IMG/VR virus record: IMGVR_UViG_3300028364_000013
Source of the DNA: a virus
Lineage: Duplodnaviria > Caudoviricetes
Reading direction: 5' to 3' (one strand)
DNA: 64,000 nucleotides
Below the pieces are notes generated by a model, which was not told the DNA's origin, ran no database searches, and worked only from the letters and a program-made list of their open reading frames with translations. Positions 32,376 to 62,415 of the stretch are shown here, one piece after another (the stretch's first letter is position 1; the number at the start of each line of letters is the position of its first letter). The position numbers and the translations under genes were made by a program.

Positions 32376-32407
32376 AAAAAAAAGCCTGAACGTTCAGTCC
32401 AGGCTTT
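32376..32407 (-). terminator. attenuator terminator of the Gln leader
   Basis: AAAGCCTGGAC-TGAAC-GTTCAGGCTTT, 8-U tract. Confidence 0.9.
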
Positions 32408-32436
32408 AAATATTTTTGTTTTATTAACTAAAATGT

Positions 32437-32517
32437 TCAGGCACCACCAGGACTGTCCTCTTTCGAAGATTGTTGCTGCTGTTGCTGCTGTACGTTTATG
32501 TTAATTACTGTTTTCAT
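32437..32517 (-). CDS. poly-Gln leader peptide MKTVININVQQQQQQQSSKEDSPGGA
   Basis: 26 codons with CAG CAG CAA CAG CAG CAA CAA; terminator 30 nt downstream, then four Gln-anticodon tRNAs. Confidence 0.9.
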   Translation of the reverse strand: MKTVININVQQQQQQQSSKEDSPGGA

Positions 32518-36468: not shown

Positions 36469-36521
36469 ATTTATTTCAATAATTTTCCTTTCGAATACCA
36501 ATGGACGTTTCCATAGGGCAC

Positions 36522-36554
36522 AAAAAAAGCCCGAACAATTATGTTCGGGCTTTT
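36522..36554 (-). terminator. attenuator terminator of the Leu/Phe leader
   Basis: AAAAGCCCGAACA-TAAT-TGTTCGGGC followed by 7 U. Confidence 0.9.
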
Positions 36555-36584
36555 AAAATATCTTGTGTTATATAATTTACATCA

Positions 36585-36689
36585 TCACACTAAAGACATA
36601 TCACGTCCGAACTTTTGTCTACTAAAGACAAACAGTAACTGCAAGAATTGCAGTGATAACTGACGTAATATGTTGTTAATGTTTTTCAT
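36585..36689 (-). CDS. Leu/Phe-rich leader peptide MKNINNILRQLSLQFLQLLFVFSRQKFGRDMSLV
   Basis: 7 Leu, 4 Phe, 3 Arg, 2 Val in 34 codons; between promoter 36730 and the terminator. Confidence 0.8.
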   Translation of the reverse strand: MKNINNILRQLSLQFLQLLFVFSRQKFGRDMSLV

Positions 36690-39218: not shown

Positions 39219-40337
39219 CTAATGTACTACTTTAGCGATTGCAGGATTGTTCCTAATCCCGAAATTCATTATATTTTTACCTGCATTAACATCTCTATCT
39301 TCCGAATGTCCACACTTATCACAATTATATGTCCTATCTGAAAGTTTAAGGTCTTTCTTGATATTCCCACAAACATTGCACAATTTACTACTTGGTTCAA
39401 ATCTTCCGATTACAACAAGGTTTTTACCTTGCCATTCAGATTTATATTCAAGCATTGTTCTTAATTGCCCCCAACCCATATCAGATATAGCCTTTGCTAA
39501 ACAATGGTTTTTAACCATATTAGAAACTGCTAAATCCTCAATACAAATTGTTTCATAAGTATCCACTAATTCAGTAGATATTTTATGCAAATAGTCAGTC
39601 CTTTGGTTACGGATTTTCTCTTGCAATAATGCTACTTTTAATTTTTGTTTTTCTCTATTACTACTTCCTTTTACTTTTCTTGCTAAACTTCTTTGTTCAA
39701 CTCTCAGCCTTATTTGTTGTGATTTGAAAAAGTTTTTATTTTCATACACAACTCCATCAGAAGTGATAGCTAAATCTTTAATCCCAAAATCAATTCCTAC
39801 ACTTGTACTTGTTGTAATTATTTTCTTTTTAGGTATTTCTTTATCATTATCAACTAAAATAGATACAAAATATTTACCTGTTACAGTCTTAGTTAATGTT
39901 ACTCTTTTTGGTATTCCTTTAAATTCTCTATGATAATCAATAGCAACTTCTTTTAATTTAGGAAGTTTAATAACATTGTCCTTAAATGATATTTCAAAAC
40001 CTTGCGGAAATGTAATTGATTGTTTAGAATATCTATTTTTATATTTAGGAAATTGCCCCCTGCCTTTAAAAAAGTTTTGATATGCAGTATCTAAATTAAT
40101 TAAACTATGTTGCAAAATTTGGCTTGGGCATTCCTTTATGTAATCAAATTCTTTTTTTAATTCGGGTAATTGTTTAATTAAATCATACTTAGATATTGAT
40201 TTTTTGTTTGAAGCATACGCAGTAGTCTTAGTTTCTAACCCTAAGTTAAAAACCAATCTATTAACTCCAAAGTACCGTTGTAATTGGTCTTTTTGAGTTT
40301 CCGTTGGGAAAATTCTGTATTTATATCCTTTTAACAT
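39219..40337 (-). CDS. tnpB: TnpB RNA-guided nuclease
   Basis: YKYRIFPT HTH, VGIDFGI, ICIEDL, SSKLCNVCG, CDKCG, DRDVNAGKNI. Confidence 0.93.
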   Translation of the reverse strand: MLKGYKYRIFPTETQKDQLQRYFGVNRLVFNLGLETKTTAYASNKKSISKYDLIKQLPELKKEFDYIKECPSQILQHSLINLDTAYQNFFKGRGQFPKYKNRYSKQSITFPQGFEISFKDNVIKLPKLKEVAIDYHREFKGIPKRVTLTKTVTGKYFVSILVDNDKEIPKKKIITTSTSVGIDFGIKDLAITSDGVVYENKNFFKSQQIRLRVEQRSLARKVKGSSNREKQKLKVALLQEKIRNQRTDYLHKISTELVDTYETICIEDLAVSNMVKNHCLAKAISDMGWGQLRTMLEYKSEWQGKNLVVIGRFEPSSKLCNVCGNIKKDLKLSDRTYNCDKCGHSEDRDVNAGKNIMNFGIRNNPAIAKVVH

Positions 40338-42283: not shown

Positions 42284-43831
42284 TTATTTTGTTTCTAATT
42301 TTATAAATGGTTTAATCTTTTCACACTGTTTTAGTGCGACTCTAATTTCTTCAAATTTTCCAGGAATTACTGGATAGTAGAGTTCATTTATTTTCGTAAT
42401 GGCATAGTGAATCTCTAGGACTAGCGGCCAACCTTTCTCAAGGTCTTTCCAAGGTTCTGCATCACCAATTCTCTTATTAAGTTCTTTTACAAGCTTGTTT
42501 GTCTCTTGAAGGGCGTCTGAAATTAGATAGTTGTTCCAAAGTGTTTTTATATTGTCAATTCTCTGGTCAAGTCCAACACACCATTTTTCTTCAGACACAT
42601 AAGAGTGGTCTAATTCAATATTTGGGTCATCCACGAACTTGTCGAGAGTCTTACTAGCCAATACGGTGACTCTGGTGACTAAATTACCATAATCATCAGC
42701 AAGGTCATTGTTGTATTTAGCTACAAGCAACTCTTCATCCCAAGATGAGTTTCCATAAGTTCTTAAACCCGCAAGCGCATAGTAACGAACTGCATCAACT
42801 CCATATTTTTTAACTTGGTCAATAGGGTCAACAACATTTCCAACAGACTTACTCATCTTACGTCCATCTTTATCCAAAATAGTTCCATGAACAAGTAATT
42901 TATCTGTTTTTTTGATTCCTGCAGACATTAATAGTCCCTGAAATATTACAGACTGGAATTTAAGGTTATCTGGGCCACAAATCTGAATTACTTCAGACTC
43001 ATTCCACCTTTCTTCAAAGTCATGGTCGTCATGAAGGTCATTAGGGTAGTATCCTGCAGCAAATATGTAGTTTAACAAAGCATCAAACCATACATATATG
43101 ATTTGGTCTTCATCTCCTGGAACTGGGATTCCCCAACTAACAGTTTCTTTAACTCTGGATATAGAAATGTCCTGAAGATTCTCTATAATCTTATCGAATT
43201 CTCCAATCTTATTCTTTGGTTCAAAAAATTTGTCATTTACATGCAGCCACTGAAGAAACCTTTCTCTATATTTAGAAAGTTTGAAGAAATAGTTTTCTTC
43301 TTCAACTTCTTGAAGCTCTGTTGTTGGGTGGTCTGGACAAACTTTTCTTTTGTGTATATGCACCTTAGGATATTCAAGAGCAGGGTCAACTCCTCCAATA
43401 ATTCTATCCTCAAGTTCTCTATCGCTTTTGAATGACTCGCATCCAACACAATAGGTTCCAGTGTATTTCTTTTTGTAGATGTCGCCTCTATTGAAGGCTT
43501 CAACCCAGAACTGCTGAACATTCACATAATGCTCTGAGTCAGATGTTCTGTAAAATGAATCCCAGCTATCAATCTTAAGTTCTTTAATGAAATCTTCCCA
43601 ACTGTAAAGAAGGTCATCAACATATGCTTGAGGAGAAATACCCTTAGCTTCAGCTGCTTGCTGAATCTTTAAGCCATGTTCATCAAGACCAATATTGAAA
43701 AATACATTATCACCACGATATTTGAAATATCTCACCAAAGCATCAGCTATGATAAATTCAAAAGCGTGTCCTATGTGCGGATTTGAGTTCGCATATGGCA
43801 ATGTGGTCGTTATGTATTTATTTTTATTCAT
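42284..43831 (-). CDS. metG: methionyl-tRNA synthetase
   Basis: YITTTLPY, HIGH, YCVGCE, YVWFDAL, KMSKS. Confidence 0.95.
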   Translation of the reverse strand: MNKNKYITTTLPYANSNPHIGHAFEFIIADALVRYFKYRGDNVFFNIGLDEHGLKIQQAAEAKGISPQAYVDDLLYSWEDFIKELKIDSWDSFYRTSDSEHYVNVQQFWVEAFNRGDIYKKKYTGTYCVGCESFKSDRELEDRIIGGVDPALEYPKVHIHKRKVCPDHPTTELQEVEEENYFFKLSKYRERFLQWLHVNDKFFEPKNKIGEFDKIIENLQDISISRVKETVSWGIPVPGDEDQIIYVWFDALLNYIFAAGYYPNDLHDDHDFEERWNESEVIQICGPDNLKFQSVIFQGLLMSAGIKKTDKLLVHGTILDKDGRKMSKSVGNVVDPIDQVKKYGVDAVRYYALAGLRTYGNSSWDEELLVAKYNNDLADDYGNLVTRVTVLASKTLDKFVDDPNIELDHSYVSEEKWCVGLDQRIDNIKTLWNNYLISDALQETNKLVKELNKRIGDAEPWKDLEKGWPLVLEIHYAITKINELYYPVIPGKFEEIRVALKQCEKIKPFIKLETK

Positions 43832-51791: not shown

Positions 51792-53219
51792 TTAGTATTT
51801 CCTTTTTGAAGGGTCGTCATCAGCCATCCTAACCACTTGTGGTGTGAATGTACCAAGAATATCAATCAAGTTGTTTTGCGCTTCCATTACTTTCGTAATA
51901 TCTTTATAAGCATATGGAGCCTCATCGAGACCGCCACCAACAAGTGTTACCTTGTTATCTTTAAGAAGCTTAGTAACTGAGCTTTGAGTAAACGAGTTTC
52001 TCGCCACCTTTCTTGACATAGCTCTACCAGCACCGTGAGAAGCTGAAGATATTGAGTCAACAACACCTCTTCCTCTAACAATGAACCCTGGAGAAACCAT
52101 AGAACCTGGGATTATACCAAGGACACCTTTTCCAGCAGGAGTTGCTCCCTTACGGTGAACAATAACCTCTTTACCATCAATGATTTCCTTCCAAGCAAAG
52201 TTGTGGTGATTTTCAATCTTAGCCACTGGGTTTAACTTTAGCTCTTTGGTAATTCTTCTGTGAATCTCGTTGTGACAAGCTTGCGCATAATCACCAGCCA
52301 TATTCATAGCTATCCAGTATTCCACACCAGCTTCCGAATTCATATCAAGCCACGCAAGGTGTTGAGCTGCCTTTGGAAGAGGTGTTGTGTTCATAGCAAT
52401 TTCATGATACTTGTTGGCAAGTGTAGCACCGAACCCTCTTGAACCAGAGTGAGTTAATACACCAACATATTCTCCAACCTCAAGACCGAAGTCGTTAGTT
52501 GGGTCAGTTATCTTAACTATACCAAAGTCCACAAAGTGATTTCCACCTCCTGAAGTTCCAAGTTGTTTCCAAGCTTTGTCCTTAAGAGCTTTTATGTTTG
52601 GTATTTCATTGAACTCTTTCCTATCAAGGAATTCGTGTTCAGTTAATTTACCATCATTCTCAACTCCCATTCCGAAGAATGACTCAGACTTAAGAATGTT
52701 TTCAATCTTATCTCTATTTCCATCAATGTATGAACCACCTTTATCGTAGATGGTCATGTGCATTCTACAACCTATGTCAACACCAACTGCATATGGAATA
52801 ATAGCATTATCTGTAGCAAGGACACCTCCAATTGGAAGTCCATAACCTTGGTGAGCATCTGGCATAAGAGCTGCAGCAACAGAGATTGGCAATCTTGCAG
52901 CAAGTTTTATTTGCTCGTGAGCGCCTTCTTCTATGTTGTCTCCACCATATACAGTATATGGCACACCAACTTCTTTAAGTGGGATTTCAATCACTTCCTC
53001 TTCTACAGCTGGAATCAATAATTCAGCGATTGGCCCAAGAACAATGTCTTCAACATAATCTTCTGGAGTCAAAAGTACAGCCTTTAAAATATCACGTACA
53101 GTATCAAGGTCACTGTGCTTGTAAGCTTTTGTTACAATCTTCAATGTTACACCCATAACTTTACCTGGCTCCATTCCGAACGCCATAAGGTCTTTGCCTG
53201 TTATCTTTAACTTTACCAT
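51792..53219 (-). CDS. rtcB: RtcB RNA ligase
   Basis: MPDAHQGYG, GVDIGC, GTSGGGNHF, HSGSRG, HHN, VHRKGA, SHGAGR, DEAPYAYK. Confidence 0.95.
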   Translation of the reverse strand: MVKLKITGKDLMAFGMEPGKVMGVTLKIVTKAYKHSDLDTVRDILKAVLLTPEDYVEDIVLGPIAELLIPAVEEEVIEIPLKEVGVPYTVYGGDNIEEGAHEQIKLAARLPISVAAALMPDAHQGYGLPIGGVLATDNAIIPYAVGVDIGCRMHMTIYDKGGSYIDGNRDKIENILKSESFFGMGVENDGKLTEHEFLDRKEFNEIPNIKALKDKAWKQLGTSGGGNHFVDFGIVKITDPTNDFGLEVGEYVGVLTHSGSRGFGATLANKYHEIAMNTTPLPKAAQHLAWLDMNSEAGVEYWIAMNMAGDYAQACHNEIHRRITKELKLNPVAKIENHHNFAWKEIIDGKEVIVHRKGATPAGKGVLGIIPGSMVSPGFIVRGRGVVDSISSASHGAGRAMSRKVARNSFTQSSVTKLLKDNKVTLVGGGLDEAPYAYKDITKVMEAQNNLIDILGTFTPQVVRMADDDPSKRKY

Positions 53220-57475: not shown

Positions 57476-57512
57476 AAAAAAAAGCCCAAACTATTCGAGA
57501 TAGCTTGAGCTT
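57476..57512 (-). terminator. attenuator terminator of the Cys leader
   Basis: AAGCTCAAGCTAT-CTCGA-ATAGTTTGGGCTT, 8-U tract. Confidence 0.85.
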
Positions 57513-57536
57513 AAAATTTCTTTTATTATTATAAAT

Positions 57537-57647
57537 CTACTTCATAACACTCAAACTAACGTTTTTTTTGCAAAACGGACATACCCCTTCCAGGCCGCAA
57601 TCAATCGCTTGCGAAGTTGGTCTCCAATATGTCATGTTAGTTTTCAT
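57537..57647 (-). CDS. Cys-containing leader peptide MKTNMTYWRPTSQAIDCGLEGVCPFCKKNVSLSVMK
   Basis: 36 codons, 3 Cys; terminator 24 nt downstream, then an RNase H-like gene and two tRNA-Cys. Confidence 0.7.
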   Translation of the reverse strand: MKTNMTYWRPTSQAIDCGLEGVCPFCKKNVSLSVMK

Positions 57648-57945: not shown

Positions 57946-58022
57946 ATTGTAAATATATAAAAATAATATTTAATATCAAATTAATAACCTTTTATTTACG
58001 CAGGGACTTATATTATTAATTG

Positions 58023-58096
58023 TGGGCCCCATCAGACTCGAACTGATAACCTTTTCATTATGAGTGAAATACACTAACCAATTGTGTTAGAGGCCC
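58023..58096 (-). tRNA. tRNA-Ile2(CAU) (or elongator Met)
   Basis: TTTCA-CTCATAA-TGAAA; C4-G69 and C5-G68 (TilS determinants) favour Ile2. Confidence 0.8.
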
Positions 58097-58105
58097 TTAA
58101 ATTTT

Positions 58106-58184
58106 GTCGGGAAGGTGAGATTCGAACTCACATGTAACCAATTACCCTTTCTACAAGATATAAGCTTGAGGGGATACAACCCGA
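58106..58184 (-). ncRNA. rearranged tRNA-like RNA with a UAU anticodon-like loop
   Basis: TCGGG/CCCGA acceptor, canonical T arm, hairpin CAAG-CTTATAT-CTTG, no normal D arm. Confidence 0.65.
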
Positions 58185-58225
58185 TACATATGTCTATTTC
58201 ACTTTCCATTTTATTTATTTTTTTG

Positions 58226-58323
58226 TGGACAATACGAGAATCGAACTCGTATCTCCAGTTTGCGCTATCCTGTGTGGTTGCACTTCATAGCCTTCACCGA
58301 TTTACCAATTAATCTAATTGCCC
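58226..58323 (-). ncRNA. tRNA-Ala-like RNA with an extended anticodon region
   Basis: G3:U70, A73, normal D and T arms, 47 nt instead of about 22 between them. Confidence 0.75.
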
Positions 58324-58328
58324 TTTTG

Positions 58329-58398
58329 TTGGTGTAGAGGGACTCAAACCCCCGACCCCCTGAATTACAGGTGCTCTAATCAACTGAGCTATACACCG
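58329..58398 (-). ncRNA. tRNA-like RNA with a shortened anticodon arm
   Basis: CCTG-TAATT-CAGG (4 bp, 5-nt loop), C1:A72, TGAT/TTTGAG elbow. Confidence 0.7.
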
Positions 58399-58442
58399 AA
58401 CTCTTCAATCGCCTTAAGTCGATTTCCGAGCTACTTAAGTAG

Positions 58443-58525
58443 TAGTGACGGTGGGAATTGAACCCACTTTGTACTTACGTACCCACGTTATCAGCGTGGT
58501 GCCTAAACCATCCAGCCCCGTCACT
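58443..58525 (-). tRNA. tRNA-Ile(GAU) with long variable arm
   Basis: CCACG-CTGATAA-CGTGG, variable arm GTAC-GTAA-GTAC, A73. Confidence 0.82.
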
Positions 58526-58780: not shown

Positions 58781-59551
58781 TTAATTCTTTACTTCATCTA
58801 AAATATTATATTTTAAACACCATTTTCTAACTGTATTATCAGAAACTGCATACTTATTTCCAACCCTTGTAAAATATTTAAATTTTTTAAAATCATCCAA
58901 TAGAACCATTTTGTTTGGTATTCTGCTTTTTCTTTTACAATTATATTCTTTGCACCACTTTTTAATTACACCCAATGAAACCCCTAAGTGTTTAGATAAT
59001 TCTAAATCACTTTTAAATTTCGAAAATACCAACACAAATTCTTCTTTATTTATTTTTGGTAAAATATTTATTTCACTAATTACCTTTCCAAGTTTTTCAT
59101 ATTCTCTTTTTATTTTATGACATCTTTTATAATTACCACCTTTAGGGGTTAATCCAGTTTGTATTAATGACTTTCTCATATTCCAGTCATTAATCAACAA
59201 ATATTCTAATAATTTTTCATTACTAATTTTTTCTTTTTTTATTTTATTTCTACCCCTCCAATTACTTGTTAAACCATGGCAGTTTGGACATAGACACTCA
59301 AGGTTTGTTTTTTTATTATTTGTATTATCCCCATCAATGTGATTAATTTCCAAAGGTATATTACACCCTTGCCATTTATTTAATTTACATTTTTTACAAG
59401 TTCTTTTATTTTCATATATAATATATTCTCTAATCATATCCCAAGATAAATCATCAAAATTTTTACTTAAAATATATTCTTCACGTTTTTTTCTTTCTTC
59501 TAAATTATATAACTCCTTTTTTTCACTAATTCTTAACCACTGACTTGACAT
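58781..59551 (-). CDS. HNH homing endonuclease
   Basis: LEINHIDGDNTNNKKTNLECLCPNCH; C-terminal HTHs. Confidence 0.88.
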   Translation of the reverse strand: MSSQWLRISEKKELYNLEERKKREEYILSKNFDDLSWDMIREYIIYENKRTCKKCKLNKWQGCNIPLEINHIDGDNTNNKKTNLECLCPNCHGLTSNWRGRNKIKKEKISNEKLLEYLLINDWNMRKSLIQTGLTPKGGNYKRCHKIKREYEKLGKVISEINILPKINKEEFVLVFSKFKSDLELSKHLGVSLGVIKKWCKEYNCKRKSRIPNKMVLLDDFKKFKYFTRVGNKYAVSDNTVRKWCLKYNILDEVKN

Positions 59552-59637
59552 AATATTTGTTTTTTATTATAAATATTATGAAAAAAGTAAAAGTTCGATT
59601 TTTTGTTAAATTAATTCGAACTTTTACTTTAAATTAG

Positions 59638-59710
59638 TCTCCCCGATAGGACTTGAACCTATTCTCTTTCGATTAAAAGTCGAAGGCTTCCCCTGTTAAG
59701 CTACGAGGAG
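59638..59710 (-). tRNA. tRNA-Lys(UUU)
   Basis: TTCGA-CTTTTAA-TCGAA. Confidence 0.88.
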
Positions 59711-59726
59711 GTTTTTAATTCTTTCG

Positions 59727-59798
59727 TGAACCCACCGAGAGTCGAACTCGGTTCCATAGATTAAGAGTCTATAGCATCACCACTAATGCTTTGGGTCC
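59727..59798 (-). tRNA. tRNA-Lys(CUU)
   Basis: ATAGA-CTCTTAA-TCTAT. Confidence 0.88.
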
Positions 59799-59899
59799 AG
59801 AATATGTTTATTATCAAGGCCTGCAACTCTATTGCTTGAGCAAGCCTCTTAACGTTTCTTATATTTCATCTTTTTATATTTCATTTTCTTTCTTTTTTG

Positions 59900-59972
59900 A
59901 GCTGTTGACAGGGGTCGAACCTGCGACATCTTCATTACAAGTGAAGTGCTCTACCAACTGAGCTACAACAGC
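59900..59972 (-). tRNA. tRNA-Thr(UGU)
   Basis: CTTCA-CTTGTAA-TGAAG. Confidence 0.93.
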
Positions 59973-59990
59973 ATATTATTATTTTTCTTG

Positions 59991-60063
59991 AGCTGGAGAT
60001 GGGTCTCGAACCCACAGCCTACTGCTTACAAAACAGTCGCACAACCAATCGTGCTCCTCCAGC
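59991..60063 (-). tRNA. tRNA-Thr(UGU)
   Basis: ACTGT-TTTGTAA-GCAGT. Confidence 0.88.
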
Positions 60064-60069
60064 ATTTTA

Positions 60070-60750
60070 TTACCAAGATTTTCCTTCTTTATAATTTTTT
60101 CTTCTTCTCTTTCTTCTTCTACTATACCTACCATCCCCTTCTGATATAGCTTTCCAACTTTTAGTTAATGCATGATGATTTGGGCATAAAATCTGCAAAT
60201 TATCTACTTTATTATTATCTGGATTACAATCTACATGATGCAACTCCAGCGGTATTTTACCTGAATATTTATTTACCTCTTTCCATCCGCACTCCATGCA
60301 TTTTTCTCCATGTATAGATATAAGATAAGTCTTATAAATTTTGGTATGCTCAGTAGTATATTCTCCTTTTTCTATTTTATCAAAAATCTCTTTTCTTTGA
60401 AATTCTTGTTGACACTTATTATTACAATATTTCTTATTTCCATCTATCTGCTCTTTACAGTTTGTACAATTATTAAACTTTTTTCTTTTTCTATTGTTAT
60501 AACTCACCCCACATGATTTGCAACAAAACTTTTTTGGATTAGACTTATTAACTTCAAACCCACATTTACACTCTAAACAACTCCTATCCTCACTACTTGA
60601 ATTATGTTCTGAAAATTTAACTCCAGATTTATTCATTTTATTCCTAACAGAATCAACACTCCTATTTAATTCTTCAGCTATATGATGAAATCTAAACCCA
60701 TCTATAACAAGCTTTTTAGCTTTTTCAAACTCTTCTTTGCTCCATTTCAT
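60070..60750 (-). CDS. HNH homing endonuclease
   Basis: LELHHVDCNPDNNKVDNLQILCPNHH. Confidence 0.88.
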   Translation of the reverse strand: MKWSKEEFEKAKKLVIDGFRFHHIAEELNRSVDSVRNKMNKSGVKFSEHNSSSEDRSCLECKCGFEVNKSNPKKFCCKSCGVSYNNRKRKKFNNCTNCKEQIDGNKKYCNNKCQQEFQRKEIFDKIEKGEYTTEHTKIYKTYLISIHGEKCMECGWKEVNKYSGKIPLELHHVDCNPDNNKVDNLQILCPNHHALTKSWKAISEGDGRYSRRRKRRRKNYKEGKSW

Positions 60751-60830
60751 ATCTATCTATTTTATAATAAATAGTTAAAAATAATGAGCTTTCAAAATTA
60801 TTCGAAAACTATACCACTTTCATATACCAG

Positions 60831-60904
60831 AGCCTTGTATGGGACTCGAACCCATCTTTCAGACTTACCGAATCTGTACATCAATCCAACAATGCTTACA
60901 AGGC
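60831..60904 (-). tRNA. tRNA-Thr(GGU), atypical C33
   Basis: CAGAT-TCGGTAA-GTCTG. Confidence 0.8.
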
Positions 60905-60930
60905 ATATTTCAAATAACTTTTACTTTTTG

Positions 60931-61016
60931 GGTGAAAGATGGGTTCTGACCCCACGACCTCCCGATTCACAGTCGGGCGCTCTACGACTTTCGTCTCCAG
61001 CTGAGCTACAATCACC
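60931..61016 (-). tRNA. tRNA-His(GUG) with an extra hairpin in the D loop
   Basis: G-1:C73, CCCGA-CTGTGAA-TCGGG, GAC-GAAA-GTC insertion, T loop GTCAGAA. Confidence 0.75.
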
Positions 61017-61053
61017 ATATTAAATTAAAAAGAACTTTTTCTTTTTTTTGTTG

Positions 61054-61126
61054 AGGACCCACCGAGACTCGAACTCGAAATCGCAGATTAACAGTCTGAA
61101 GTGATAACCAATTTCACCATAGGTCC
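61054..61126 (-). tRNA. tRNA-Asn(GUU), atypical U73
   Basis: TCAGA-CTGTTAA-TCTGC. Confidence 0.82.
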
Positions 61127-61136
61127 TTAATTTATT

Positions 61137-61595
61137 TTATTTACTCTTTTCTATTTCTTCATGTATTTCAGCATGACAATTAGAACACACTAAAATACAT
61201 TTATCTAATTCTTTTTTTACTTTTTCCCAAGACCTCGTATAACCTTTGTGACCTATACCAAATTCTTTTTCATTTGGGTTTAAATGATGAAACTCTAAAG
61301 CTCTACTACATTTATTATACCCACACCTTTCACAACAACCACCTTTATACTCAATTGACAATTGCTTAACCTTTTTCCTTCTATTTTGAACTGCTTCAAC
61401 ATTTTTCTTTCTTTTATCTTCTTTTTGAAGGGGTGATAAAGTTCTTTTACTTACATATTCTAACACTGTAGTTTTACTCACTCCAAACTCTTTAGCTACA
61501 ATCCTTGATGATTTTCCAGAATTATACTCTTTTTTAATTAATTTAATTAGTTCTTCACTAATTTTTTTTCCTTTTTTACTTTTTAATTCGTCCAT
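61137..61595 (-). CDS. HNH endonuclease
   Basis: YKGGCCERCGY, LEFHHL, CILVCSNCHAEIH; same family as 35668..35985. Confidence 0.88.
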   Translation of the reverse strand: MDELKSKKGKKISEELIKLIKKEYNSGKSSRIVAKEFGVSKTTVLEYVSKRTLSPLQKEDKRKKNVEAVQNRRKKVKQLSIEYKGGCCERCGYNKCSRALEFHHLNPNEKEFGIGHKGYTRSWEKVKKELDKCILVCSNCHAEIHEEIEKSK

Positions 61596-61649
61596 AATAT
61601 TAACTTTGTTTGTTAAAAAATAGGACTAAATTTTTCAAAGCATCACTTG

Positions 61650-61721
61650 CGACTCCAACGGGGCTCGAACCCATAACAAATGATTAACAGTCAAACGTGA
61701 TACCAATTTCACCATAGAGTC
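61650..61721 (-). tRNA. tRNA-Asn(GUU)
   Basis: Loop CTGTTAA, G73, weak anticodon stem. Confidence 0.8.
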
Positions 61722-61770
61722 ATATTTCAAATTTTAAGATTCTGAACGTTTCTCAAAAACCTTTGGACAC

Positions 61771-61799
61771 AAAAAAAGCCCGACCTATTGGCCGAGCTT
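61771..61799 (-). terminator. attenuator terminator of the Asn/Ile/Thr/Lys/His leader
   Basis: AAGCTCGGCC-AATA-GGTCGGGC followed by 7 U. Confidence 0.9.
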
Positions 61800-61825
61800 C
61801 TGTATATTTTAAATTGTACTTGTGA

Positions 61826-61936
61826 TTAAATTAGTTCATCACTTCCATTTTTGCTTATACATAGCTCGACCATACCATTTTGCTTTTTATTGCAAATCGT
61901 ATTATTAATCGTTGTATGTATATTTAATGAGTACAT
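61826..61936 (-). CDS. leader peptide MYSLNIHTTINNTICNKKQNGMVELCISKNGSDELI
   Basis: 14 of codons 5-20 are N/I/H/T/K; between promoter 61985 and the terminator. Confidence 0.85.
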   Translation of the reverse strand: MYSLNIHTTINNTICNKKQNGMVELCISKNGSDELI

Positions 61937-61984
61937 TGTGTTTCTTTTTTCTAAATAGTAATTAAAAATTCTTTTTTTGTTTTC

Positions 61985-62010
61985 TTCTACGCAAATATAT
62001 AACTTTTGTT
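61985..62010 (-). promoter_or_regulatory. ECF-type promoter of the Asn/His/Thr/Lys/Ile tRNA unit
   Basis: AGAAC-N16-CGTAGAA with embedded TATATTTG. Confidence 0.7.
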
Positions 62011-62115
62011 CTATTAAATCCAAATCTTTTTTAAAGAAATATTGAAAATAATTCGTAACTGCTTGATAATCAAATAAAAAGGGAGTAAACTTTTTTTCAC
62101 TCCCTTTCAATTATT

Positions 62116-62415
62116 TTACCTGTTTGGCTGTGGTCTACGTGTCCACGTTCCATTTTCAAGTCTGTAAACTCCTTGTTTAACCCATTTCTCCCAGCCGTTA
62201 GATTTGATTTTGAAGTGGTCCTCCAAGTGTGATACAGTAAAATTCCAGGATTCGAATCGACCTAAGCCTGATTCATCTCTCGCTATCCTGATAGCCTCTT
62301 GTTCCGATTTCTCTCTTGTCCAAGCTTCTGGTGTAGAAGTTTCGATGTAGAAAGAGGGGGCACGATGGCCAGCGCTGTGCTGGGTATCCACCCTCCATAA
62401 TCTTAGTTTATTCAT
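62116..62415 (-). CDS. hypothetical protein
   Basis: 99-aa ORF followed by a hairpin terminator near 62077..62108. Confidence 0.6.
   Translation of the reverse strand: MNKLRLWRVDTQHSAGHRAPSFYIETSTPEAWTREKSEQEAIRIARDESGLGRFESWNFTVSHLEDHFKIKSNGWEKWVKQGVYRLENGTWTRRPQPNR

What the first reader, a model, noticed from the sequence alone, without database searches (positions are those of the whole stretch)
61771..61936. Multi-amino-acid leader that mirrors the downstream 13-gene tRNA array
Seen: codons 5-20 read NIHTTINNTICNKKQN, 14 of 16 being N, I, H, T or K. The downstream array (61721 to 58023) encodes Asn x2, His, Thr x3, Lys x2, Ile(GAU), Ile2(CAU) and three odd tRNA-like RNAs, the same five amino acids. 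GGTCGAGCT (61863..61871) pairs over 9 bp with terminator arm AGCTCGGCC (61790..61798). Established: multivalent leaders exist (thr, ilvGMEDA). Caveat: N, I and K are common in AT-rich ORFs, so H, T and the antiterminator carry much of the weight.
Basis: partly seen in the sequence, partly recalled or inferred. Interest (0 to 1): 0.9.

Follow-up and report, generated by a model that had tools for sequence, protein, structure and literature searches.

The report
Leader-peptide switch gating phage tRNA genes
A 36-codon mini-gene written mostly in Asn, Ile, His, Thr and Lys codons, followed by a switchable transcription stop, sits in front of the phage tRNA genes for those same five amino acids. 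It most likely lets the phage make these tRNAs only when ribosomes read those codons slowly, a control I could not find described for tRNA genes.

Summary
The window is part of a 195-kb uncultured lake-water phage with Bacteroidota-type promoters.

At 62024..61771 (minus strand) the order is promoter, 36-codon ORF, intrinsic terminator, then 50 nt later a tRNA array: Asn x2, His, Thr x3, Lys x2, Ile, CAU and three tRNA-like genes.

- **Composition.** Codons 5-20 are 14/16 N/I/H/T/K. Only 2 of 168,409 stop-free 16-codon windows in the genome reach this, and 1 of 1,672 short ORFs.
- **RNA switch.** The RNA has the classical four regions. Masking a ribosome at codons 3-14 drops terminator probability from 0.97 to 0.0-0.3.
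- **Paralogues.** Five other cassettes in the same genome each mirror their own tRNA cluster. The true pairing is the best of 720 permutations.
- **Orthologues.** Six Asn-type leaders in related metagenomic phages keep the N/I/H/T/K core before N/H/T/K/I tRNAs. They show compensatory changes in helices 1:2, 2:3 and 3:4.

This is most likely a ribosome-mediated attenuator that gives feedback control of tRNA transcription. No RNA or experimental data exist. Six literature searches found no description. Earlier notes of this scan report the same design in at least 13 other genomes.

The parts
62077..62108 (-). Intrinsic terminator of the preceding 99-aa gene (62415..62116). It isolates the leader unit from upstream transcription.
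   Evidence: 13-pair stem plus T tail
61992..62024 (-). Bacteroidota-type promoter: -33 TTTG (62024..62021), 21-nt spacer, -7 TATATTTG (61999..61992). It is part of a motif, AACAAAAGTnnTATATTTGCGTA, shared with the paralogous cassettes.
   Evidence: the only full-consensus match on the minus strand in 55-64 kb; 7 copies of the extended motif in the genome, all on the coding strand
61948..61957 (-). Conserved 5'-UTR box TATTTAGAAA in an A-rich, Shine-Dalgarno-less region upstream of the start codon
   Evidence: present before the Ser, Pro, Asn and Phe leaders; variants before Gln, Cys and L031
61826..61936 (-). Leader ORF, 36 codons plus TAA: MYSLNIHTTINNTICNKKQNGMVELCISKNGSDELI
   Evidence: The in-frame 94-aa TTG extension was rejected because paralogues have stops 2-22 codons upstream.
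61877..61924 (-). Sensor codons 5-20 (N I H T T I N N T I C N K K Q N). 14 of 16 are read by anticodons of the array (the ATA codon only if the CAU tRNA is Ile2). TGC (Cys) matches the Cys tRNAs further downstream.
61892..61922 (-). Region 1, which overlaps sensor codons 5-15. It pairs with region 2 in the free RNA (helices of 8+5+4+4+2 bp).
   Evidence: covariation
61856..61883 (-). Region 2 (codons 18-27). It contains UGGUCGAGCU (61872..61863) and UGUAUA (61861..61856), near-copies of the terminator 3' arm and its flank.
61789..61806 (-). Region 3: the terminator 5' arm plus UAUACA. It forms a 10+6 bp antiterminator with region 2.
61771..61785 (-). Region 4: the terminator 3' arm GGUCGGGCUUU (61785..61775, including 3 U of the run) and the 7-U run (61777..61771). 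Hairpin energy is -16.7 kcal/mol.
61649..61721 (-). tRNA-Asn(GUU), the first gene of the array, 50 nt after the U-run
61137..61595 (-). HNH homing-endonuclease gene inside the array
   Evidence: phrog_2255, E 2e-30
60830..61126 (-). tRNA-Asn(GUU) 61126..61053, tRNA-His(GUG) with a D-loop insertion 61015..60931, tRNA-Thr(GGU) 60904..60830
60070..60750 (-). Second HNH endonuclease gene
59637..60063 (-). tRNA-Thr(UGU) x2, tRNA-Lys(CUU), tRNA-Lys(UUU)
58781..59551 (-). Third HNH endonuclease gene
58022..58525 (-). tRNA-Ile(GAU) 58525..58442. Odd tRNA-like genes at 58398..58329 and 58323..58226, plus a sub-threshold one at 58183..58107. tRNA(CAU) 58096..58022, either Met or Ile2 (unresolved).
57482..57647 (-). 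Next cassette: Cys-type leader (57647..57537) and terminator (57512..57482). This is the first strong terminator after the Asn-type one and marks the end of the unit.
36522..36689 (-). Paralogous cassette: leader MKNINNILRQLSLQFLQLLFVFSRQKFGRDMSLV plus terminator, before tRNAs Phe, Val, Leu, Arg, Leu, Leu
32376..32517 (-). Paralogous cassette: leader MKTVININVQQQQQQQSSKEDSPGGA plus terminator, 12 nt before four tRNA-Gln genes

Best explanation
The region 62024..61771 is a ribosome-mediated (leader-peptide) transcription attenuator. It gates a phage tRNA operon of 13 tRNA or tRNA-like genes with interspersed HNH endonuclease genes.

Proposed mechanism:
1. Host RNA polymerase starts at the Bacteroidota-type promoter, and a ribosome translates the 36-codon leader.
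2. If Asn, Ile, His and Thr codons (and probably Lys codons) are decoded quickly, the ribosome moves over or past region 2. Region 2 is then covered or re-pairs with region 1, the terminator (3:4) forms, and transcription stops 50 nt before tRNA-Asn.
3. If decoding of these codons is slow, the ribosome stalls on region 1 (codons 3-14). Region 2 is free to pair with the terminator's 5' arm as it emerges (a 10+6 bp antiterminator), and polymerase reads into the tRNA genes.

Because the products are the tRNAs that read the sensor codons, the circuit is a negative feedback on tRNA supply.

Shown from sequence: the architecture, the statistics, the paralogues, and the orthologues with covariation.

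Inferred: translation of the leader, coupling of translation to transcription, and the physiological signal. That signal could be low tRNA abundance (from host tRNA depletion or mismatched codon usage) or low charging.
For: 1. Composition. 14/16 sensor codons are in the set. This is unique among 1,672 short ORFs and one of 2 among 168,409 windows. 20 of 36 codons are read by anticodons of the array, in a contiguous run of ten.
2. Layout. The order is upstream terminator, the only consensus promoter, ORF, terminator, then tRNA. In the paralogous Gln and Ser units, and in relatives L017 and L031, the tRNA starts 2-15 nt after the U-run. No separate promoter fits there, so these tRNAs can only be made by read-through.
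3. RNA switch. The free RNA folds as 1:2 plus terminator (-47.1 kcal/mol, z -5.6). Without region 4 it folds as the 2:3 antiterminator. With a ribosome mask at codons 3-14, terminator probability falls from 0.97 to 0.0-0.3, and it is 1.0 from codon 16 on. Orthologue L121 behaves the same way.
4. Six paralogous cassettes share the promoter, the UTR box, an MKT-type start in most, a stop-to-stem spacing of 21-31 nt and the terminator tail. Each mirrors its own cluster, for example QQQQQQQ before 4 tRNA-Gln. The true leader-cluster pairing ranks 1 of 720 permutations, and 2 of 40,320 with two relatives added; the only better arrangement swaps two orthologous sets.
5. Each leader's distal codons pair best with its own terminator arm: rank 2 of 720 and 16 of 40,320.
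6. Six orthologous Asn-type leaders (L121, L126, L128, L131, L132, L137) keep 14-15 of 16 N/I/H/T/K in their best window, before N/H/T/K/I tRNA arrays.
7. Compensatory changes among orthologues:
 - Helix 1:2: TATACATA/TATGTATA becomes CTTACATA/TATGTAAG.
 - Helix 2:3: GGTCGAGCT/AGCTCGGCC becomes GGTCGGGTT/AGCCCGACC and GAATCGGGT/GCCTGATTC, with A-U to G-U to G-C intermediates.
 - The terminator arms differ but stay paired.
8. Arg codons are split by isoacceptor. AGA is used in the leader before tRNA-Arg(UCU/CCU), and CGT in the leader before tRNA-Arg(ACG).
Against: - There is no transcript, ribosome-profiling or reporter evidence, and no RNA sequencing run holds this DNA.
- N, I and K are favoured by the 34% GC content, and N/K/T/I/H codons are mutational neighbours. 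Conservation of the set among orthologues is therefore weaker evidence than it looks.
- Codons 15-20 (C N K K Q N) lie where a stalled ribosome would cover region 2 in my simulation. Lys sensing in this copy is therefore doubtful.
- In the other five paralogues and in four of six orthologues the terminator wins at equilibrium whatever the stall position. The switch there would have to be kinetic.
- The 2:3 helix is only 5-6 bp in L131, L132 and L137.
- The 50-nt spacer before tRNA-Asn holds a 7/8 match to the -7 box. A weak constitutive promoter cannot be excluded (my reading).
- Whether transcription and translation are coupled closely enough in the unknown host is not known.
Confidence: 0.8

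Rival explanations
1. The attenuator mechanism is the same, but the signal is amino-acid supply (tRNA charging), as in classical biosynthetic operons, rather than tRNA abundance. The phage would tune tRNA transcription to the host's nutritional state instead of running a tRNA-supply feedback.
For: A stalled ribosome cannot tell a missing tRNA from an uncharged one. All structural evidence fits both readings. The phage also carries a MetRS gene, and its relatives carry other synthetase genes.
Against: - Making more tRNA does not relieve amino-acid starvation, so this loop would have no obvious benefit.
- Leaders sample isoacceptor-specific codons, such as Arg AGA versus CGT according to the tRNA-Arg that follows, and both Lys and both Gln codons. 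This fits a tRNA-level sensor.
- The genome also encodes the RtcB tRNA ligase, which points to pressure on tRNA integrity.
Confidence: 0.2
2. The short ORF is an ordinary small phage gene, or a chance ORF, with its own terminator. The resemblance to the tRNA set comes from AT-rich composition.
For: N, I and K are common in a 34% GC genome. The whole-leader enrichment alone is modest (18/35, P = 5e-3).
Against: - It is unique among 1,672 short ORFs.
- Five paralogues with quite different compositions (Q; S/R/W; P/D/A/Y/G/M; F/V/L/R; C) each match their own cluster, with permutation rank 1 of 720.
- Orthologues conserve the amino-acid set and the RNA pairings but not the distal peptide.
- In sister cassettes the terminator is immediately followed by tRNAs with no room for a promoter.
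Confidence: 0.03
3. The element is an RNA-only sensor. Like a T-box, the leader RNA would bind tRNAs directly through its codon-like triplets, or a phage or host protein would govern the terminator. No translation would be needed.
For: T-box riboswitches show that tRNA can control a terminator/antiterminator directly (established knowledge). The leader is highly structured (z -5.6).
Against: - No T-box or any other Rfam family reaches threshold. The best hit is Leu_leader at 25.5 bits against a cut-off of 50, and it lies over the terminator.
- The cognate triplets lie in one frame, between a conserved ATG and a stop at a conserved distance (21-31 nt) from the terminator stem, in all cassettes.
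- Ten or more different specifier triplets in a row have no precedent in T-boxes.
Confidence: 0.05

Closest known systems
Multivalent leader-peptide attenuators of enterobacterial amino-acid operons (thrL: Thr+Ile; ilvL of ilvGMEDA: Ile/Leu/Val), textbook knowledge
   Same: A short translated leader rich in several regulatory codons. Four RNA regions with mutually exclusive 1:2, 2:3 and 3:4 helices. An intrinsic terminator before the first structural gene. Read-out by ribosome stalling.
   Different: - The genes controlled are tRNA genes, not biosynthetic enzymes, so the product feeds back on decoding itself.
- Five amino acids are sampled.
- The element is phage-borne with a Bacteroidota-type promoter and no Shine-Dalgarno sequence.
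- The leader is longer (36 codons), with its stop 25 nt before the terminator stem.
- There is no sequence similarity and no Rfam match.
hisL / pheL / trpL single-amino-acid attenuators (Rfam His_leader, Trp_leader, Leu_leader)
   Same: The sister Gln cassette (seven consecutive Gln codons before four tRNA-Gln genes) looks like hisL with its seven His codons. The terminator/antiterminator logic is the same.
   Different: Different targets, host phylum and sequence. None of these Rfam models reaches its gathering score here.
T-box riboswitches
   Same: They sense the tRNA pool for a specific amino acid and control an intrinsic terminator upstream of translation-related genes.
   Different: A T-box binds one uncharged tRNA directly, without a ribosome. 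It has a conserved Stem I, specifier loop and T-box sequence, and it controls synthetase, biosynthesis or transport genes. None of these features, and no Rfam hit, is found here.
Phage tRNA clusters with interspersed homing endonucleases (T4, T5 and large phages), general knowledge
   Same: Clustered tRNA genes on one strand with HNH endonuclease genes between them. A tRNA repair enzyme, RtcB, is encoded nearby.
   Different: As far as I could find in six full-text searches, no leader-peptide control has been described for such clusters.

Membership tests
Leader-peptide (ribosome-mediated) transcription attenuators | Short ORF with a start codon in the 5' leader, downstream of a promoter | tested here: met
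   ATG at 61936, 36 codons. The promoter at 62024..61992 is the only consensus match nearby. The start position is conserved in paralogues and orthologues.
Leader-peptide (ribosome-mediated) transcription attenuators | A run or enrichment of regulatory codons cognate to the operon's function | tested here: met
   14/16 codons are in the set. Genome-wide controls are, permutation tests, and the codon-anticodon match.
Leader-peptide (ribosome-mediated) transcription attenuators | Intrinsic terminator between the leader ORF and the first structural gene | tested here: met
   11-bp stem plus 7 U at 61800..61771, 50 nt before tRNA-Asn
Leader-peptide (ribosome-mediated) transcription attenuators | Mutually exclusive antiterminator (2:3) and anti-antiterminator (1:2), with region 1 overlapping the regulatory codons | tested here: met
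   Folds. Ribosome-mask simulation. Compensatory changes among orthologues.
Leader-peptide (ribosome-mediated) transcription attenuators | Read-through rises when the cognate aminoacyl-tRNA is limiting, and depends on translation of the leader | not testable with these tools
   No RNA run holds the DNA. This needs a reporter or in vitro assay.
Leader-peptide (ribosome-mediated) transcription attenuators | The regulated genes are amino-acid biosynthesis (or synthetase/transport) genes | tested here: not met
   The downstream genes are tRNAs and HNH endonucleases. This is the point of novelty.
Rfam curated leader families (Thr_leader, His_leader, Leu_leader, Trp_leader and others) | Covariance-model score at or above the gathering threshold | tested here: not met
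   There is no hit at gathering level. The best sub-threshold hit is Leu_leader at 25.5 bits against 50.
T-box riboswitch (RF00230) | Stem I with a specifier loop and the conserved T-box antiterminator bulge, giving an Rfam model match | tested here: not met
   No T-box match at gathering level or at E <= 1

The most novel reading that the evidence does not exclude
Phage tRNA genes are under ribosome-mediated attenuation. Each tRNA block of this phage has its own 'test gene' written in the codons its tRNAs read. Six parallel feedback loops would thus hold the supply of each tRNA set at the level that phage translation needs, for example when the host pool is poor in A/T-rich-codon tRNAs or is being destroyed by host nucleases. 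This would be the first class of tRNA genes controlled by decoding speed, and a conserved design across a family of aquatic Bacteroidota phages.
Probability: 0.6. Interest if true: 0.9.

Novelty: new variant of a known kind. Interest (0 to 1): 0.87.

Why it matters
Leader-peptide attenuation is a textbook mechanism, known for amino-acid biosynthetic operons. Here the same logic is wired to tRNA genes, so the sensor (decoding speed of given codons) and the output (the tRNAs that read them) form a direct feedback loop.

If confirmed, it would:
- explain how large phages regulate their many tRNA genes;
- give a way to predict which codons limit phage translation in an unknown host;
- link tRNA arrays to the conflict over host tRNA pools, since RtcB and synthetase genes lie nearby;
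- provide compact, orthogonal, codon-specific sensors of translational capacity for synthetic biology.

The six cassettes in one genome, plus orthologues with covariation, make the hypothesis directly testable with simple reporters.

Tried and rejected
- **RNA evidence.** The look-up of sequencing runs listed no RNA holder.
- **Natural variants.** Read laying on four lake-water DNA runs gave only short contigs. They were either identical to the window or cross-mapped from the paralogous Pro cassette, so there was no variant information.
- **Promoter motif searches in IMG/VR.** The exact extended motif gave 0 hits. The looser pattern TATTTGCGTA..TATTTAGAAA gave 12 loci without any tRNA, which I take as chance matches.
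- **ATP-grasp neighbour in viral contigs.** No relatives were found. The protein database search did succeed later.
- **RtcB-based scans.** The metagenome scan returned mostly large, probably bacterial contigs. The RtcB profile scan of IMG/VR added no new cassette.
- **Formal pair counts.** The MAFFT alignment A2 of the six orthologues misaligned region 2 between the two subgroups. I therefore did not use the count of structure pairs and counted pairs on motif-anchored segments in a script instead.
- **Equilibrium ribosome-mask simulation.** It shows no switch for the other five paralogues or for L017, L031, L066, L126, L128, L131 and L137.
- **The 94-aa in-frame TTG extension of the ORF.** Rejected: it overlaps the upstream terminator and the promoter, and paralogues have nearby in-frame stops.
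- **A separate promoter in the 50-nt spacer before tRNA-Asn.** Only a 7/8 match to the -7 box exists, and it is not conserved in the paralogues.
- **Ile2 versus Met identity of the CAU tRNA.** Could not be settled.

Full report
**Context.** The window is the reverse strand of positions 108,042-172,041 of a single 195,333-bp contig. The contig has 33.9% GC and 40 ARAGORN tRNAs, including a CUA suppressor. It is classed as a virus record. It is held at full word share by two lake-water metagenome runs, both possibly its source, and in part by other lake-water runs. It encodes RtcB, a MetRS and a TnpB-like protein, and its promoters follow the Bacteroidota TTTG-N19-21-TAnnTTTG consensus. No close relative is in the phage record collection. 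Only the HNH endonuclease gene matches other phages there.

**Observation.** On the minus strand the order is as follows.
- Terminator of the preceding gene, 62108..62077.
- Promoter 62024..61992, the only full consensus match on this strand in 55-64 kb.
- An A-rich 5' UTR.
- A 36-codon ORF, 61936..61826: MYSLNIHTTINNTICNKKQNGMVELCISKNGSDELI.
- An intrinsic terminator, stem 61800..61790 / 61785..61775 followed by seven U.
- tRNA-Asn, 50 nt after the U-run.

The array down to 58022 holds Asn x2, His, Thr x3, Lys x2, Ile-GAU, a CAU tRNA and two to three odd tRNA-like genes. The His tRNA has anticodon GUG and a D-loop insertion, and ARAGORN missed it. Three HNH endonuclease genes lie inside the array. 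The next strong terminator on this strand is that of the Cys-type cassette at 57512..57482.

**Is it more than chance?** N/I/H/T/K make up 29.4% of the phage's long ORFs.
- The binomial probability of 14 or more in 16 is 2.3e-6.
- Only 2 of 168,409 stop-free 16-codon windows in six frames reach 14, one of them this leader.
- It is the only one of 1,672 ATG-ORFs of 20-60 aa to reach even 13.
- At codon level, 20 of 36 codons are read by anticodons of the array, with ten in an unbroken run. The ATA codons count only if the CAU tRNA is Ile2.

**RNA architecture.**
- The free leader RNA folds into a long 1:2 hairpin plus the terminator: -47.1 kcal/mol, z -5.6, with no shuffle folding as well.
- Without region 4 the fold switches to a 2:3 antiterminator. 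It has 10 bp (61872..61863 with 61798..61789) plus 6 bp (61861..61856 with 61806..61801).
- The leader-to-arm duplex is -18.7 kcal/mol, reached by 0 of 1000 shuffles.
- I masked a 28-nt ribosome footprint at each A-site codon. Mean terminator pair probability is 0.97 for free RNA, 0.0-0.3 (0.6 at two codons) for stalls at codons 3-14 (S L N I H T T I N N T I), and 1.0 from codon 16 onward.
- Under a stall at codon 10 the antiterminated and terminated folds are nearly isoenergetic, -32.1 versus -31.5 kcal/mol. The order of synthesis would therefore decide the outcome.

**Paralogues.** Earlier notes of this scan on the same genome pointed me to five further cassettes, which I checked myself. Their start codons are at genome positions 80165, 95710, 114395, 135353 and 139525.

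Shared features:
- Two cassettes (Pro, Phe) share the Asn cassette's promoter motif directly upstream. The Ser and Gln leaders have it further upstream, and none was found before the Cys leader.
- The cassettes share the TATTTAGAAA box or a variant of it, an MK(T/N)-type N-terminus in four of the five, and a strong terminator ending GGGCTTTTTTTG or close to it.
- The stop-to-stem spacing is 24-31 nt.

| Leader core | tRNAs that follow |
|---|---|
| RWSRWSSSS | Ser x5, Cys, Arg(UCU, CCU), Trp |
| PMGYMGAPAADD | Pro, Asp, Pro, Asp, Ala, Tyr, Gly, Gly, CAU |
| LRQLSLQFLQLLFVF | Phe, Val, Leu, Arg(ACG), Leu, Leu |
| QQQQQQQ | four tRNA-Gln |
| three Cys codons | two tRNA-Cys |

Statistics:
- Using whole leaders with no hand-picked core, the true leader-cluster assignment scores best of all 720 permutations.
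- The leader-to-own-terminator-arm duplex energies rank 2 of 720.
- Of 30 strong terminators on the coding strand, five lie 12-78 nt before the first tRNA of a cluster.
- In the Gln and Ser units only 12-15 nt separate the U-run from the tRNA. Those tRNAs can only be transcribed by read-through.

**Relatives.**
- *Through RtcB.* L017 has the leader MKTRRTHSTLSPLTPSLSRT... plus a terminator 2 nt before tRNAs Pro, Pro, Ser, Ser, His, Thr, Arg, Arg, Leu, Ser, Leu, Leu, Thr, Leu. L031 has MKTYNTNIAMTYAPIGNGYDAAPDYGD... before Tyr, Pro, Tyr, Pro, Gly, Asp.
- With these two added, the composition match ranks 2 of 40,320. The only better arrangement swaps the two orthologous Pro-type sets. The antiterminator match ranks 16 of 40,320.
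- *Through the ATP-grasp gene 560 nt upstream of the leader and its encoding contigs.* I recovered six orthologous Asn-type leaders in L121, L126, L128, L131, L132 and L137.
- All six keep 14-15 of 16 N/I/H/T/K in their best window, and all precede Asn/His/Thr/Lys/Ile tRNA arrays.
- Their distal peptides differ (MVELCI, MVGLCT, RIGYVS, EFGYVG), but the RNA pairings are kept.

Compensatory changes:

| Helix | Sequences in different orthologues |
|---|---|
| 1:2 | TATACATA/TATGTATA; CTTACATA/TATGTAAG (two double changes) |
| 2:3 | GGTCGAGCT/AGCTCGGCC; GGTCGGGCT/AGCTCGGCC; GGTCGGGTT/AGCCCGACC; GAATCGGGT/GCCTGATTC |
| 3:4 (terminator) | arms differ and remain paired |

- The 2:3 helix shows an A-U to G-U to G-C series and keeps 9 bp in four of six orthologues.
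- L121 shows the same simulated switch as the window copy.
- Pro-type and Leu/Cys-type leaders in these relatives again mirror their own clusters.

**Mechanism.** The best-supported reading is classical ribosome-mediated attenuation applied to a tRNA operon. Slow decoding of the sensor codons holds the ribosome on region 1. Region 2 then captures the terminator's 5' arm, and polymerase reads into the tRNA genes. Fast decoding lets 1:2 and 3:4 form, and transcription ends. Because the products decode the sensor codons, this is a negative feedback on tRNA supply.

The isoacceptor-specific choice of Arg codons, and the sampling of both Lys and both Gln codons, favour sensing at the level of tRNA species rather than amino acid. 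That point remains an inference.

**Weak points.**
- No expression data exist.
- Codons 15-20, including both Lys codons, lie where a stall would favour termination in my simulation.
- Most sister cassettes and four of six orthologues show no equilibrium switch and must work kinetically if they work at all.
- The 2:3 helix is short in three orthologues.
- N/K/T/I/H codons are mutational neighbours in an AT-rich genome.

**Comparison with known systems.** In function the element matches the multivalent thrL and ilvL attenuators, and the Gln copy matches hisL. It does not belong to any curated Rfam leader family or to the T-box family. It also fails the usual criterion that the regulated genes are biosynthetic.

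Six full-text searches returned nothing on leader-peptide or attenuation control of phage or cellular tRNA genes. The single co-occurrence paper was unrelated.

Earlier AI notes of this scan report the same design in at least 13 other genomes. I treat those as leads, not as evidence.

**Verdict.** It is a new variant of a known kind of regulation, conserved across a family of aquatic phages, and it can be tested with simple reporters.

Noticed in passing
L002:15621-16047 (genome 105621-106047, about 2.4 kb beyond the window's end): A GOLLD RNA (Rfam RF02032, 169 bits, above the cut-off of 150) lies just upstream of the Asn unit, after two odd tRNA-like genes at genome 104045-104301.
   Followed up: no
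window 58107-58398: Three odd tRNA-like genes. 58329-58398 has an unusual anticodon loop. 58226-58323 is 98 nt long. 58107-58183 is below the Rfam threshold. They could be decoys or tRNAs altered in the anticodon loop.
   Followed up: partly
window 60931-61015: tRNA-His(GUG) with a large D-loop insertion and two acceptor-stem mismatches. ARAGORN misses it at default settings and Rfam scores it at 41.5 bits.
   Followed up: partly
window 57537-57647: The Cys-type leader ends in TAG, and the genome encodes a CUA suppressor tRNA (genome 73284-73356). Read-through of that stop would carry ribosomes across the terminator.
   Followed up: no
window 61722-61770, 36469-36521; genome 95890-95966: A conserved box GAAACGT(C/T)CA lies in the spacer between the terminator and the first tRNA in the Asn, Phe and Pro cassettes. 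Its function is unknown; it could be a processing site.
   Followed up: no
window 51792-53219, 42284-43831, 39219-40337: The phage encodes the RtcB tRNA ligase (fused to a weak nucleotidyltransferase match), a methionyl-tRNA synthetase and an IS605 OrfB/TnpB-like protein. Relatives also carry release-factor fragments and another class I synthetase next to the same locus.
   Followed up: partly
L070:6137-6350, L072:4287-4465, L076:5029-5205, L037:3510-3730: In large RtcB-bearing contigs, possibly bacterial, tRNA arrays are preceded by one or two terminator units. These carry a conserved short ORF or RNA (...SLS.HWYAQ...IVPIGN...QRP...) whose distal residues partly match the tRNAs that follow. 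This may be a related or independent control element.
   Followed up: partly
L066:5375-5536 and L081:30-191: An activated-sludge contig has a Bacteroidota-type promoter, the leader MKTIKHTNQNNAFGQRTNLF... and a terminator, then a second ORF-terminator unit, before tRNAs Pro, Gln, Leu, Lys, Asn, Phe, His, Tyr. It is a probable further member of the family, arranged in tandem.
   Followed up: partly
L128:11085-11336, L131:9172-9426, L132:11050-11328, L137:7098-7352: In four orthologous loci an 83-92-aa lysine-rich ORF is inserted between the Asn-type attenuator and the first tRNA-Asn.
   Followed up: no
window 61937-62110: The leader's reading frame stays open for 58 codons upstream of the ATG, across the promoter and the upstream terminator. 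This is unusual for AT-rich DNA. I judge it accidental because the paralogues have nearby in-frame stops.
   Followed up: yes
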